64,000 bases of DNA from Eledone cirrhosa (taxonomy: Eukaryota). The notes beneath the pieces are model-generated. The model ran no database searches. It saw nothing but the letters and a program-made list of their open reading frames with translations, and was not told the DNA's origin. Below are positions 9,104 through 49,945 of this stretch, one piece after another. The position numbers and the translations under genes are program-made. The DNA lies in NCBI GenBank assembly GCA_964016885.1, contig OZ024740.1, positions 202,802,001-202,866,000 of the forward strand, in the 5' to 3' direction. Numbering within the stretch: position 1 is the first letter of the stretch; the number at the start of each line of letters is the position of its first letter.

Positions 9104-9668
9104 ATTAAGAGAGTAAAACAAAGAATCCTTTAATACATCAAAAGTTTTTATTAGCCGACAATGTTTCGTCCTATTAAGGACTCATCAGGGCAATCAAAAC
9201 ACCAAGAAGTAATATCGGCAGATACAAGCCGGATTGTTTAGATTTAGACAAACCAAATTTGTTTAGATTTAGGTTAGTTGCTTTGGACTTTATTTGTAAT
9301 ATGGTTCTTAATGTTATATACATCCTTAATTACACTTATTATATATTTTTATTATTTTTTATTATTTTTATTTTTATTTTTATTATCATATATTTTTGCA
9401 AGACTTTAGTGTATGTACACTCCATATTCTTCGGAGATTCCGGCTTGTATCTGCCGATATTACTTCTTGGTGTTTTGATTGCCCTGATGAGTCCTTAATA
9501 GGACGAAACATTGTCGGCTAATAAAAACTTTTGATGTATTAAAGGATTCTTTGTTTTACTCTCTTAATTTTTTGGCTCTGTTTAACTGCATTGAGCTATA
9601 CCTTTTACTGTCATTTCTATAATACGAAGAGGGTGTTTAACTCCAACACGCTCCAGTATTCTAATCCT
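9104..9668 (+). mobile_element. PLE-type terminal repeat with inverted partial copy
   Basis: Inverted arms 9104-9233 / 9439-9568, tail to 9668, (TA)n both sides, HHR in each arm. Confidence 0.8.
9481..9518 (+). ncRNA. Type I hammerhead ribozyme (inverted copy at 9154-9191, minus)
   Basis: GCC-CTGATGA-GTCCT(TAAT)AGGAC-GAAA-C(ATT)GTC-GGC; intact core, GUC triplet. Confidence 0.9.
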
Positions 9669-9851
9669 TATATATATATATATATATATATATATATATA
9701 TATATATATATATATATATATATATATATGTGTGTGTGTGTGTGTGTATGCATGTATGTATGTAGAAGGTAAACAAAAATAAAAATAAAAAAAACAGTAC
9801 AGTATATGGAAGGAATATATTAGTTTAACGCTTGAAATAGCAAGAAGAGGG

Positions 9852-9887
9852 TCTTAACATTTCGGATGTTAGCCCTTCATCTGAAGA
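9852..9887 (-). ncRNA. Minimal, degenerate HHR-like motif
   Basis: TCTT-CAGATGA-AGGGCTAACATCC-GAAA-TGTT-AAGA; flanks related to 15445-15516 and 50340-50390. Confidence 0.5.
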
Positions 9888-10559
9888 AAGAATGAGAAAT
9901 AAGAAAGACTGAGGAGACGGGCGGGGCGGACTCGGAAAAATTCTTTTTAGAGAAAAATAACAATTCATTTCTTCGTGTTGCCATCTCTTGGAAAACTATT
10001 GATGCTAGCGTTTTGTGTATGATGTACTTTTTTTTTTAGAAAAGTGTATAATGGAACGCGTCTATCGAATACTGAAGCAATATCAGTAAAGTGACCATGG
10101 TAGGGATTAATAAGCAAACTGTTAACAAACTCATTAAAGTCGGGTGGCTTATTACGGGTATATATATATATATATATATTGCGTAATAGATGTATACCAA
10201 CGGAATGATGGTAAACTTTAAGGAAAGAAAAACGTGTTTGTTTATGTTTTTGACCCAGAGACGAACGAAGCAGCATCTAAACTATAATAAAGTATGGAGT
10301 GCGAGATTGCGTCCAGAATATATTTTTTTTATCCCGTTTGTAAAATAAGTTGGATTACTTTGAATAAATAATGAATGAATATTACATAATTTATCTACTA
10401 AATTTCGCTATTCTTGATTAAATATAAATAATATTGTTGCTTATTTTAAGATTCACTTCTTTAAAATTTTCAAATGTCAACACTTCCGGTTAGCGATCGC
10501 TTAAATAAACATTCATATATTTCCGTCACTAATGTTCTCCTAATGCAGTTTATATATAA

Positions 10560-11344
10560 CTAGCAGCAGTACCTAGCGTTGTCTGGGTAGGTAAAATAAT
10601 ATCTGCTTTAATGAAAAGGTGTTAATCTTAGCGACTGCTTCTCGATGACTCATCTATGGCCACACACAGGCCATGCGGGTGATGACCTCTATCACTGAGA
10701 AACGCAGGTGACTTACGAAGGGGTATGCTGGGGGAGGGAGTTTCGAATTTGAACGAAATCGGTTGAAAAATGTGGGAGCTAAAGCCGAAAAGGCGCAAAT
10801 TTGAGCGAAAAGGTGGTATTTTCGAATATTTAAGCGGCTGCCACGCCGTTCCTGAACAAATAATCCAAAATGTAAAGCCACTTTAAGACGTGCAATAATC
10901 AGATCTAGCATAGTGTAAAATTTGAACAAAGTAGGTTGATTAATGTGGGAGCTAGAGCCGAAAATTTGAGTCTAAAAGTGGTATTTTTGAATATTTAAGC
11001 GGCTGCCACGCCGTCCCTGAACAACAAATGCAAAATATAAAGCCATCACAGGATGTGCAATGATAAATTCTATGTCGCTTTAAATTTGAACGAATCGGTG
11101 GCAAAATGTGGGAGCTAGAGCCAAAAATCTTATTTTTCGATACCTAAAAAAGGGTGCCCTCCTATCGATTTTTATCTGCAGAATGACCCCGGAATAAAAA
11201 AGAACGATACGCTGATATATAGAAAACACTCCCCGATGACTAATCTATGAGCCTGTAAAGTTTCATGAAAATCGGTCGTAAGATGTAGGCCCCTATAGGT
11301 AATACACAGACACACACACATACTTAATTTTATATATATACAGA
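10560..11344 (-). mobile_element. Non-autonomous Helitron-like element
   Basis: Minus 5' TCTGTATATATATAAAA, 3' hairpin ACCCAGACAACGCTAGGT then CTAG, A|T target, internal duplication. Confidence 0.75.
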
Positions 11345-11754
11345 TATCGTCTTTTTTTAATGTACCATGGATTACGTTACTGATTACATAAGACAATGTA
11401 ACGCAGTCTTCGTTCAATTTCTGTGTATATTGTCAATTACGATTTTATTTGATGTATCATATGTACATGCATATATACTTGCGTATAATATCAATATGCA
11501 CACTACACATGCTAGCAGAAAACCACCCGCAAGGTGGTTTTTCTGCTAGTGTTGTTATAATGCTTCACCGTCTGAGTCATTTACTCCGTTCCCGCACCAC
11601 CAACATCAAAGATGGAGGAGTTGTATAACGTCGAATGCTTTTCTCATATTACATCATGATTAACATTGCAGAATGACCAAGTGGTGAACCAAGTAGTAAA
11701 CCACCAAATTTATATATATATATATATATATATATATATATATATATATATATA

Positions 11755-11875
11755 CTATCATTAAAGCCCGGCGTTGCTTGGGGTCAGTAAGTTACCAAAG
11801 TTAGGTTGCACCACCCATTTTATGGCAGCACTTTTTTGTCTGCCAGGCACTGGGTGAATGAATTGCAGACCTGGA
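11755..11875 (-). mobile_element. Helitron 3'-end fragment related to 1242-1360
   Basis: Near-identical CATTAAAGCCCGGCGTTGCT...GCAGACCTGGA with an internal deletion. Confidence 0.7.
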
Positions 11876-48411: not shown

Positions 48412-48637
48412 ATATATATATATATATATATATATATATATATATATATATATATATATATATGGATATATATATATATAATTAATATATATAATTCATT
48501 TAATTTTGGTTATATATATATATATATATATATATATATATATATATGCAAAGTTTTATTTAAAGCCAGCTTCCTACCTTAATGGTCGCTTATATTTATG
48601 GTACGTCAAAATTATTTATAAAACTGTTTATATATTG

Positions 48638-48703
48638 TATTTTATCTGACGAAGGCATGCCATATTTTTAATATGGTATCCCTGAAATATGTATAATGAA
48701 ATA
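48638..48703 (+). ncRNA. Type I HHR
   Basis: TATTTTAT-CTGACGA-AGGCATGCCATATT(TTT)AATATGGTATCCCT-GAAA-TATGTATA-ATGAAATA; flanks homologous to 19703-19863. Confidence 0.85.
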
Positions 48704-49496
48704 AATATGGTTTTATATATATAGTTTCCATTTGTTTAATATCGTATATATATATATATATATATATATATATATATATATATATATATATATATATATA
48801 TAACCAAAATTAAATTAAGGGTGTCATGTCTGAGAGACATGCGCCATACCTACTGTAGAATATGCTCAAAGATTCCAATGAATAGATCCGAGCATGTGTG
48901 TGATTACACTCTTTACAAATTATCTCCTGTGATTGTTTCATATGTTTAGTTTAGATGTATATATGTCAATATCGATTTCTAGTTTATATATATATATATA
49001 TATATATGTCAATATCGATTTCTAGTTTATATATATCAACTAGAAATCCATATTGACATATATATATATATATATATATATATTTATAAATAAACATATG
49101 AAACAATCGCAGGAGATCATTTCTACTACCCTAAGTATTGAGTACTGTCCACCTGGTATCTCACCACACTTTCTTTGTTATATATATATAAATGATATGG
49201 GTAATATTGATATTATCCAATTACTAGTATGAGAGTTGCTCGATGTAATATATATATATATATATATATATATATATATATATATATATATATATACGTC
49301 TGTATACATATATGTATGTACGTATACATACATACTTACATTTAAGTAAGTGCCGTACTAAGAGTGAGAAATGAAATTTCGTTTTCATTTTATTTCAACT
49401 TATATATATATATATATATATATATATATATATGTCCAAATGCTCTGCTACCATCAACACTATACACACAGAGCTGGCATGTCTAAGAACTGACTA

Positions 49497-49552
49497 ACTG
49501 CCTGATGAGGTCATAGCCATTCAATGGCTATCATCGAAATATATATAGCAGT
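49497..49552 (+). ncRNA. Type I HHR (same family as 16756-16811)
   Basis: ACTGC-CTGATGA-GGTCATAGCCATT(C)AATGGCTATCATC-GAAA-TATATATA-GCAGT. Confidence 0.85.
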
Positions 49553-49614
49553 AAATAAAGGATTATGAGTTCATGCAATTGACTTATGTTTCATCACTAT
49601 ATATATATATATAT

Positions 49615-49945
49615 TTATTATTATGTAATAAACAACATAAGGCAATTATTCCATTTACCAGTGGTTTCTTAAAAGCAAAAGATTTTGCTTTCAATCCTCA
49701 GAATGAAAAAATTCTGGTCTGTTTATTGAAATTGGATTTTAAAAAACAATTTTAAAATCCAATTTCAATAAACAGACCAGGATTTTTTCATTCTGAGGAT
49801 TGAAAGCAAAATCTTTTGCTTTTAAGAAACCACTGGTAAATGGAATAATTGCCTTATGTTGTTTATTACATAATAATAATTAAGCTCTGTTACCTACATA
49901 GAGCACTCTTTTTTCCTGGACTTTTCCGACGGAATTACTTCATTC
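49615..49945 (+). mobile_element. Fold-back insert: 130-bp arms, 5-nt loop, tail on the right
   Basis: Arms 49615-49744 / 49750-49879, loop AACAA. Confidence 0.85.
49789..49842 (+). ncRNA. Type I HHR (inverted copy 49652-49705, minus)
   Basis: CATT-CTGAGGA-TTGAAAGCAAAA(TC)TTTTGCTTTTAA-GAAA-CCACTGGTA-AATG. Confidence 0.85.

What the first reader, a model, noticed from the sequence alone, without database searches (positions are those of the whole stretch)
9104..49945. Swarm of ~20 type I hammerhead ribozymes from many unrelated families in short, mostly (TA)n-embedded inserts
Seen: a CTGANGA-stem II-GAAA-stem III-NUH core with paired stem I at 9481, 16756, 18245, 18813, 19755, 36821, 40507, 41184, 43606, 45552, 48638, 49497 and 49789; variant cores at 13030, 13586 and 40239; minimal or degenerate forms at 9852, 15481, 34327, 46302 and 46691. 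That is about one per 2 kb across 41 kb, with mostly non-homologous flanks, so conservation is structural. Known: Penelope-like elements carry small type I HHRs in their terminal repeats. Inference: many PLE families, or non-coding retrozyme-like derivatives, share the (TA)n niche and may make this genome exceptionally ribozyme-rich.
Basis: partly seen in the sequence, partly recalled or inferred. Interest (0 to 1): 0.9.

Follow-up and report, generated by a model that had tools for sequence, protein, structure and literature searches.

The report
Penelope retrotransposon tails carrying hammerhead ribozymes
These hammerhead ribozyme motifs are real and mostly mark the cut-off tail ends of many different Penelope-type jumping genes sitting in TA repeats, a known arrangement, but this genome likely holds 200,000-500,000 of them, some with altered catalytic cores or in protein-free units, and their predicted self-cutting is untested.

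Summary
The motifs are real. All 13 'intact' sites fold as type I hammerheads (17 cores with inverted twins; shuffles 0.06), and stem II covaries between related families.

Of about 18 families, 9 lie on the same strand downstream of a Penelope-like (PLE) RT/GIY-YIG frame in longer copies, after 0.2-2 kb of non-coding tail; the short inserts are 5'-truncated PLE ends. Two are closed non-coding units: a folded 497-bp retrozyme, and a 2.26-2.29-kb unit, longer than reported retrozymes (up to 972 bp). Seven are unresolved.

Copies stop at two preferred points beside (TA)n, the PLE 'tail' signature. A sample of 89 x 10 kb gives 2.7e5 (95% 1.9-3.7e5) strict or about 4e5 relaxed motifs in 3.0 Gb, against 126,247 published for axolotl (different descriptor). 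The window is only about 3-fold above average.

Three families carry an A at core position 4; one RT/EN-coding family reads CAGUUGA in 30 of 30 matches. The families are not all unrelated. No RNA data; cleavage untested. This scan noted the same system earlier in other windows of this genome and in other genomes.

The parts
9106..9668 (+). Family H: PLE 3' end with inverted 5' copy; hammerhead 9481-9518 (+), twin 9154-9191 (-). GIY-YIG-type frame about 2 kb upstream in long copies
   Evidence: (L227, L229, L230, L231)
9747..10158 (-). Family O: decayed minimal hammerhead (core at 9883; family core canonical). GIY-YIG-like coding sequence about 0.5-0.7 kb upstream in long copies
   Evidence: L317 by tblastn, L305 by eye
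12751..13291 (-). Family L: non-coding 497-515-bp retrozyme-like unit; hammerhead 13030-13105 with CAGAAGA core and stable stem III
13401..13915 (-). Family M: hammerhead 13586-13632 with CCGAAGA (U4C) core, partial inverted twin at 13835 (+); parent unresolved
14122..14214 (-).
15376..15520 (-). Family O, second decayed copy (core at 15512)
16711..16852 (-). Family A: 5'-truncated PLE end; hammerhead 16756-16811
18245..18284 (-). Family K hammerhead; parent unresolved
18813..18879 (-). Family J hammerhead; parent unresolved
19414..19863 (+). Family B (one subfamily): palindromic insert; hammerhead 19755-19819 (+), twin 19563-19627 (-)
34327..34360 (+). Family R: minimal hammerhead-like motif with 2-bp stem I; parent unresolved
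36821..37738 (-). Family I: broken GIY-YIG-type coding fragment 37049-37738, then hammerhead 36821-36861 192 nt downstream, inside the window
40239..40276 (+). Family N hammerhead with U3-A8 core (TTGAAAA); PLE RT-EN coding sequence 1.3-1.7 kb upstream in three loci
   Evidence: L040, L053, L100
40506..40577 (-). Family D hammerhead (B/C/D clade); no ORF within the longest shared 654 nt; parent unresolved
40748..40799 (+).
41152..42129 (-). Family C: 3' UTR plus hammerhead 41182-41252; EN about 0.9 kb upstream and a 595-aa RT-EN frame in L239
43606..43678 (+). Family F hammerhead (shares the stem II pattern of A and E); parent unresolved
44083..45794 (+). Family E: 5'-truncated copy of a closed non-coding 2262-2287-bp unit; hammerhead 45552-45609 (+), inverted twin 44131-44188 (-)
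46299..46345 (+). Family Q: weak hammerhead-like motif (truncated second copy 43897-43990, -); parent unresolved
46440..48411 (-). Family P: PLE with GIY-YIG fragment 47114-47701 and 724-bp inverted repeat; hammerhead-like motif with CAGTTGA core 46691-46726 (-), twin 48164-48199 (+); 923-aa RT+EN frame in L095
48548..48744 (+). Family B (second subfamily): hammerhead 48638-48703; EN about 1.5 kb upstream in L232 and L233
49434..49597 (+). Family A: 164-bp 5'-truncated PLE end; hammerhead 49497-49552; EN about 1.15 kb upstream in 20 of 30 long copies
49615..49955 (+). Family G: palindromic insert; hammerhead 49786-49845 (+), twin 49649-49708 (-). RT+EN frames and a second, stem-I-defective hammerhead upstream in long copies
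   Evidence: (L234-L236)

Best explanation
The swarm is a pile of 3' ends of about 18 Penelope-like retrotransposon families and their non-coding derivatives, each ending in a type I hammerhead motif next to a (TA)n tract, into which it was likely pasted by a Penelope RT/GIY-YIG protein. Mechanism: the endonuclease nicks (TA)n (inferred from the published TA bias). Reverse transcription starts at one of two fixed points downstream of the hammerhead (shown here as two preferred 3' ends per family; biochemistry from PMC11167929). It usually stops early, so most insertions keep only the last 100-1,000 nt, which always include the hammerhead (fixed 3' ends and ragged 5' ends shown). Often a second, inverted piece is added (shown). 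Each insertion splits or extends a TA tract, which stays a target, so unrelated families nest side by side (inferred). Non-coding units with the same end structure (E 2.3 kb, L 0.5 kb) would borrow these proteins (inferred). Most motifs have a short palindromic stem III and would cut best as dimers in tandem transcripts (inferred from PMC4209133, untested); most lone genomic copies are then by-products.
For: Descriptor against shuffles: 17 versus 0.06. Covariation in the B/C/D clade: 7 of 8 stem II pairs change on both sides, 0 of 500 shuffles reach the score. Same-strand RT/EN coding sequence upstream for A (20 of 30 loci), B (L232, L233), C (L239; 11 of 15 loci), G (L234-L236), H (L227, L229-L231), I (in window), N and O, P (RVT_1 4.9e-11, GIY-YIG 4.2e-4). 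Fixed 3' end and ragged 5' ends in 20 of 20 family A loci. Two peaks of core-to-(TA)n distance in 8 of 9 families, e.g. G 80-90/150-160 (36 of 37), H 80/180 (27 of 29), B 90/180-190 (31 of 39); A has one main peak. TA adjacency 108 of 121 versus 20%. E: tandem cores 2262, 2287 and about 2069 nt apart, no same-strand PLE frame upstream in 30 of 30 loci. L: unit 497 nt, circular-fold z -5.0.
Against: Seven families (D, F, J, K, M, Q, R) and the 19755 subfamily were not tied to an ORF. Pfam confirmed RT or GIY-YIG in only 2 of 6 frames scanned; the rest rest on tblastn to PLE-like frames of this genome and on cysteine and GIY-type motifs read by eye. No cleavage or RNA evidence. For 49502, 9484 and 45556 the monomer MFE fold is not the hammerhead fold. 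The family searches return the 40 best-scoring loci, so parent assignments favour young copies. Covariation counts do not correct for relatedness, and the sequences were picked by the descriptor. No empty target site was examined.
Confidence: 0.88

Rival explanations
1. The swarm is mainly a community of non-coding retrozymes, each a small circular RNA copied by PLE enzymes.
For: L is a closed, strongly folded 497-nt unit with a monomer-type hammerhead. E is a closed non-coding unit. A 482-bp seven-unit array lies in sample locus L081. Seven families remain unresolved.
Against: 9 of 11 resolved families have PLE coding sequence upstream on the same strand. Their non-coding look comes from 0.9-2 kb 3' UTRs.
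Confidence: 0.07
2. The PLE origin is right, but the conserved fold is not there mainly to cut RNA. It is a protein-binding or priming landmark for the PLE enzyme, and cleavage is weak or dispensable. This changes the function, not the origin, so the confidence is for the function.
For: Family P amplified with CAGUUGA at the core (30 of 30 matches; 150 of 150 scored hits at 90% or more protein identity). T has CAGAAG in 26 of 28 matches; L has A4 in 15 of 19 loci. In an anole PLE, hammerhead mutants did not affect insertion in vitro and cleavage needed the protein (PMC11167929, passages).
Against: 101 of 121 sampled motifs keep the exact CUGANGA core. Variant cores keep C3-G8 pairing or switch it to U3-A8, a covariation reported as active (PMC3088659 section 8). 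The scan pattern itself requires most core letters, so core conservation is partly built in.
Confidence: 0.3
3. The motifs are chance matches in AT-rich, palindrome-rich sequence.
For: One minisatellite in L060 gives 9 false hits under the relaxed descriptor. Some stems are short and AU-rich.
Against: Shuffles give 0-1 strict hits against 76, and 3-4 relaxed hits against 120, in 889 kb. The motifs recur in families and covary.
Confidence: 0.01
4. The window is a special ribozyme cluster with a host function, for example a locus processed into many RNAs.
For: Density is about 3-fold above the genome mean (2.7 versus 0.9 per 10 kb).
Against: 12 of 89 sampled stretches hold 3 or more strict motifs. 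Orientations are mixed. Counts track TA-array number (Spearman 0.52, p 2.5e-5, 59 stretches). Several copies are decayed.
Confidence: 0.03

Closest known systems
Hammerheads in pseudo-LTRs of EN+ Penelope-like elements (Cervera and de la Pena 2014, PMC4209133, parts 1-2 of 4 read; Craig et al. 2021, PMC8557442, passages read)
   Same: Type I motif near the 3' end, short palindromic stem III, many families per genome, mostly lone truncated copies, opposite-strand pairs 100-700 bp apart, U3-A8 covariant, inverted 5' copies, a tail at one end, microsatellite targeting.
   Different: Estimated 2-5 x 10^5 motifs here against about 2,000-9,000 minimal motifs per genome in that paper. 3' UTRs of 0.9-2 kb. 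Longer stems I and II. Tails of about 40-140 nt rather than 30-40. Family-wide A at position 4, and A4 plus U6 in family P.
Animal non-LTR retrozymes (Cervera and de la Pena 2020, PMC7229834, passages and section 15 read; Li, Clavereau and Pollet 2026, 10.64898/2026.07.22.740005, parts 1-3 of 5 read)
   Same: Families L and E are non-coding head-to-tail units with one type I hammerhead each, below 45% GC, living beside PLEs. L has retrozyme size and a strong circular fold.
   Different: L mostly has A4. No circular RNA shown. The axolotl count of 126,247 motifs in 28.2 Gb is one per about 220 kb; here it is one per 7-11 kb, by a different descriptor.
PAc, Poseidon element of the green anole (PMC11167929, passages read)
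   Same: Two reverse-transcription start points that leave a genomic tail; cleavage of AT-rich DNA.
   Different: Shown biochemically there, only as two preferred 3' ends here. There the ORF begins inside the hammerhead; this was not examined here.
Non-autonomous Chlamys PLEs such as MRC1 (PMC8557442, passage read)
   Same: Non-coding elements with pseudo-LTRs and head-to-tail copies, like family E.
   Different: Most Chlamys lack canonical hammerheads. No autonomous partner with sequence similarity to E was found among the loci held.

Membership tests
Type I hammerhead ribozyme | CUGANGA, GAAA and UH around three stems, with the ends closing stem I | tested here: met
   13 of 13 'intact' sites; families L, T, P, M and N deviate in the core
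Type I hammerhead ribozyme | Stems supported by compensatory changes | tested here: met
   B/C/D clade, 17 sequences: stem II 7 of 8 pairs, stem III palindrome 2 of 4; stem I 0 of 8 (invariant or one-sided only)
Type I hammerhead ribozyme | Site-specific self-cleavage after the UH | not testable with these tools
   No assay; no RNA holder listed
EN+ Penelope-like element (families A, B, C, G, H, I, N, O, P, T) | [quoted passage not shown] | tested here: met
   Pfam RVT_1 plus GIY-YIG for P, GIY-YIG for H; the others by tblastn to these and related frames. Intact full-length frames were not shown for most.
EN+ Penelope-like element (families A, B, C, G, H, I, N, O, P, T) | 5' truncation, partial tandem or inverted 5' copy, optional tail | tested here: met
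   (L095 and L101 have the P motif at both ends)
EN+ Penelope-like element (families A, B, C, G, H, I, N, O, P, T) | Placement in a named clade (Neptune, Nematis, Poseidon) by RT phylogeny | not tested
   No reference sequences held; clade labels rest on the Cys-rich linker described in PMC8557442 and on recall
Animal non-LTR retrozyme (family L) | Non-coding unit under 1 kb, head-to-tail, one hammerhead per unit | tested here: met
   497-nt unit, longest stop-free frame 82 aa; two same-strand hammerheads 497 nt apart in 1 of 19 loci; shared upstream homology never beyond 515 nt
Animal non-LTR retrozyme (family L) | Strongly folded circular RNA that accumulates in cells | tested here: inconclusive
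   Predicted circular fold z -5.0 over 30 shuffles; expression not testable
Animal non-LTR retrozyme (family E) | Non-coding head-to-tail unit with one hammerhead | tested here: met
   Longest stop-free frames 119-124 aa, no blastx hit to three PLE proteins, tandem in L103, L105 and L241
Animal non-LTR retrozyme (family E) | Small size (reported 51-972 bp) and stable circular fold | tested here: not met
   2262-2287 bp; z -0.15. It is built like a retrozyme but is filed as a non-autonomous PLE-type element.
Type-SGC permuted hammerhead (PMC10085705) | Blocks in the order cleavage site, GAAA, CUGANGA | tested here: inconclusive
   0 hits in the window and 1 lone hit in 59 sample stretches, with a simple descriptor that had no positive control

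The most novel reading that the evidence does not exclude
This genome is the most hammerhead-dense known (one per 7-11 kb, 3-4 x 10^5 motifs). Its PLEs have run a natural mutagenesis of the ribozyme: three unrelated, successful families fixed A at core position 4, one also U at position 6, so either these cores cut by an unrecognised compensation or PLEs need the fold without cleavage. Beside them a 2.3-kb non-coding, hammerhead-bounded unit spreads as a giant retrozyme-like circle.
Probability: 0.35. Interest if true: 0.7.

Novelty: new variant of a known kind. Interest (0 to 1): 0.5.

Why it matters
Why PLEs carry hammerheads is an open question (PMC8557442, PMC7761336, PMC11167929). This genome supplies dozens of families (40 flank clusters in 889 kb), young copies (family H 98-99% identical), non-coding partners and family-wide core variants, so the need for cleavage can be tested directly. 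If even some of the 10^5 copies cut, for example as inverted or tandem pairs in introns, they would be a large overlooked load on host transcripts. For repeat annotation it explains many short 'unknown' or SINE-like inserts in TA tracts as PLE tails.

Tried and rejected
Rfam: swamped by microsatellite matches to miRNA families; only one hammerhead pair among the rows shown, below the gathering score.

Permuted hammerhead orders (SGC, CSG, GCS, types II and III): none in the window with a simple descriptor that lacked a positive control.

First reading of 9852 and 15481 as family-level core variants: rejected; they are private mutations.

First reading of family A as non-coding, or as lying 3 kb below another element's endonuclease (L098, L099): replaced after 20 of 30 loci showed its own endonuclease about 1.15 kb upstream.

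The 15,719 first-look candidates for the P protein are not a copy number: 0 P-type motifs occurred in 889 kb, which suggests under about 10,000.

The L060 minisatellite hits were dropped from all relaxed counts.

Literature: no paper held with 'hammerhead' plus 'U4A'. 'Hammerhead' plus 'CAGAAGA' gave 44 papers; the 10 listed look unrelated by title. 'Hammerhead ribozyme' plus 'octopus' and 'hammerhead' plus 'genome-wide' plus 'cephalopod' gave no survey of this kind. An octopus repeat annotation has 0 occurrences of 'ribozyme' in its main text (PMC13282606). Lunse et al. 2017 on PLE hammerhead variants and Arkhipova et al. 2017 on Terminons were not held and could already describe position-4 variants. 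No supplements were opened; those of PMC4209133 and PMC8557442 may bear on variants and counts.
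Full report
1. Observation. The window lies in a 3.0-Gb animal assembly with chromosome-scale contigs and is rich in microsatellites. Its repeats look octopus-like to me; that is recall, not a test. A relaxed descriptor confirms the three variant cores and gives 24 hits against 0.2 (max 3 in 30 shuffles). Rfam's model finds only the 9481 pair among the rows shown, below its cut-off. 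The five 'degenerate' sites are mixed: 9852 and 15481 are decayed copies of a canonical family, 34327 and 46302 are weak family members, and 46691 is a family-wide variant.

2. Structure. Seventeen family or subfamily representatives of the clade that holds 19755, 48638, 40507 and 41184 were aligned. 96% of cells pair; 7 of 8 stem II pairs change on both sides around a C-C mismatch present in most rows; the stem III palindrome switches between TATATA, TGCGCA and TACGTA. None of 500 shuffles reach the covariation score. Stem I shows no two-sided change. The sequences are related and were chosen by the descriptor, so this supports the fold but is not a probability. The same alignment shows that these four sites are one clade. 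Self-comparison also pairs 16756 with 49497 and 9852 with 15481. The 21 listed sites are about 18 families.

3. Parents. Twelve own-genome searches and extension of long copies assigned 11 of the 18 families. Nine lie on the same strand below PLE coding sequence: A, endonuclease about 1.15 kb upstream in 20 of 30 loci; B (48638 subfamily), 1.5 kb; C, 0.9 kb, 11 of 15 loci, with a 595-aa frame in L239; G, RT and EN frames in L236; H, about 2 kb in four of five extended loci; I, 192 nt, inside the window; N, 1.3-1.7 kb in three loci; O, 0.5-0.7 kb in two of 20 loci; P, 0.4 kb, with a 923-aa RT plus GIY-YIG frame. The missed family T is tied in the same way (L039, L242). Pfam confirms domains in only 2 of 6 frames scanned; the other links rest on tblastn to PLE-like frames of this genome. 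Two families are closed non-coding units. E has cores 2262 and 2287 nt apart, no frame over 124 aa, and in 30 of 30 loci what precedes the unit's start is its own 3' end, an inverted copy, a TA tract or unrelated DNA, never a same-strand PLE frame. L has a 497-nt unit, shared upstream homology of at most 515 nt in 19 loci and a circular fold at z -5.0; E folds no better than shuffles. D, F, J, K, M, Q and R are unresolved.

4. Insertion footprint. Family A copies share one 3' end abutting (TA)n and have ragged 5' ends (20 of 20 loci). In 8 of 9 families the distance from core to the next (TA)n has two peaks, for example 80-90 and 150-160 nt in G and 80 and 180 nt in H. This matches the two reverse-transcription start points shown for an anole PLE (PMC11167929) and the tail and inverted 5' copies described for PLEs (PMC8557442). 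In the genome sample 108 of 121 motifs have (TA)6+ within 330 nt downstream, against 20% of background positions.

5. Density. I took 89 stretches of 10 kb at fixed positions (889,400 called bases). The strict descriptor gives 76 hits (shuffles 0-1); the relaxed one gives 101 canonical and 19 variant cores (shuffles 3-4), after dropping a minisatellite in L060. Weighted by chromosome class this is 2.7 x 10^5 (bootstrap 95% 1.9-3.7 x 10^5), 3.6 x 10^5 or 4.2 x 10^5 motifs, one per 7-11 kb, in 40 flank clusters. Inverted twins and tandem units are counted separately. The largest published figure I saw is 126,247 in axolotl (PMC7229834 section 15) in 28.2 Gb; PMC4209133 gives about 2,000-9,000 minimal motifs per genome. 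The descriptors differ, and the sample is 0.03% of the genome. The window, at 2.7 strict motifs per 10 kb, is about three times the mean; 12 of 89 stretches hold 3 or more.

6. Core variants. U3-A8 (family N; 12 of 121 sample hits) and U4C (family M) are published variants. An A at position 4 is family-wide in T (26 of 28 matches) and in most L loci (15 of 19); both have a stable stem III, and 13030-13105 folds as a clean three-way junction as a monomer. Family P reads CAG-UUGA with otherwise typical minimal-hammerhead anatomy in 30 of 30 matches, at both ends of long copies. My searches found no report of U4A, but two papers most likely to list such variants were not held.

7. Mechanism. Shown: the motifs, their position at element 3' ends, the coding parents, truncation, inversion, two preferred ends and TA adjacency. 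Inferred: nicking of (TA)n by the GIY-YIG domain, priming at two sites below the hammerhead, reuse of split TA tracts by many families, trans-mobilisation of E and L, and dimer-dependent cutting. Because the hammerhead sits within the last few hundred bases, even the shortest insertion carries one, which is enough to explain the swarm. Whether cleavage is needed is open: most cores are exact, yet family P spread with two core changes, and an anole PLE inserted without cleavage in vitro.

8. Verdict. A real feature of a known kind (PLE hammerheads plus retrozymes in TA tracts), with three departures worth testing: likely record density, family-wide position-4 variants, and a 2.3-kb non-coding unit. 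Earlier notes of this scan describe the same system in this genome and in others; they are unchecked AI notes and are not counted as support. Their lead on a permuted (type SGC) hammerhead was tried with a simple descriptor and found nothing in this window.

Noticed in passing
L096, L171, L173-L175, L234-L237 (family G): Long G copies carry a second hammerhead-like motif 1.4-2.0 kb upstream of the terminal one, just below the endonuclease, with the same stem I mismatch in all six distinct versions printed. A tail bounded by two hammerheads is a possible route to new non-coding units.
   Followed up: partly
L018 with L099; L019 with L098: Two loci join the 3' end of another PLE family (hammerhead with a stem II region of about 115 nt) to the last 1.0-1.3 kb of family A, apparently a chimeric subfamily. 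A truncated palindromic piece of the first family lies at window 32661-33197.
   Followed up: partly
L081:455-3400: Seven head-to-tail 482-490-bp units, each with a canonical hammerhead and an internal (TA)n; a classical retrozyme-like array of a family also seen as lone copies.
   Followed up: partly
window 13932-14051 and 13307-13360: Decayed copy of another hammerhead-bearing family (stable stem III), split by later insertions; 24 related loci among those held.
   Followed up: partly
window 61207-61300: A relaxed-descriptor hammerhead hit with a long stem II outside the finding's range; single, not checked.
   Followed up: no
window 26340-30887 (-): Broken non-LTR retrotransposon with RT and RNase H (Pfam), interrupted by long trinucleotide expansions.
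   Followed up: no
window 14854-15237 and 2645-3014; 639-1989: 3' fragments that look like restriction-endonuclease-type non-LTR elements (recalled motif; no Pfam hit), ending at (TATG)n tracts; two copies 94.5% identical.
   Followed up: no
window 19963-20565 (+): 200-aa frame with several C2H2 zinc fingers, probably the 3' end of a LINE.
   Followed up: no
window 14545-14732, 24516-24739, 25157-25339, 31200-31370, 31975-32189, 43140-43330, 53587-53779, 55175-55348, 61931-62152: At least nine copies of a 170-220-bp SINE-like repeat.
   Followed up: no
window 16865-16942, 39443-39586, 49088-49178: Short TA-flanked pieces of a very common repeat family with no type I hammerhead found; it recurs beside many fetched loci. 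Not identified.
   Followed up: no
window 62812-64000: 52-bp minisatellite, 23 copies, 95% matches.
   Followed up: no
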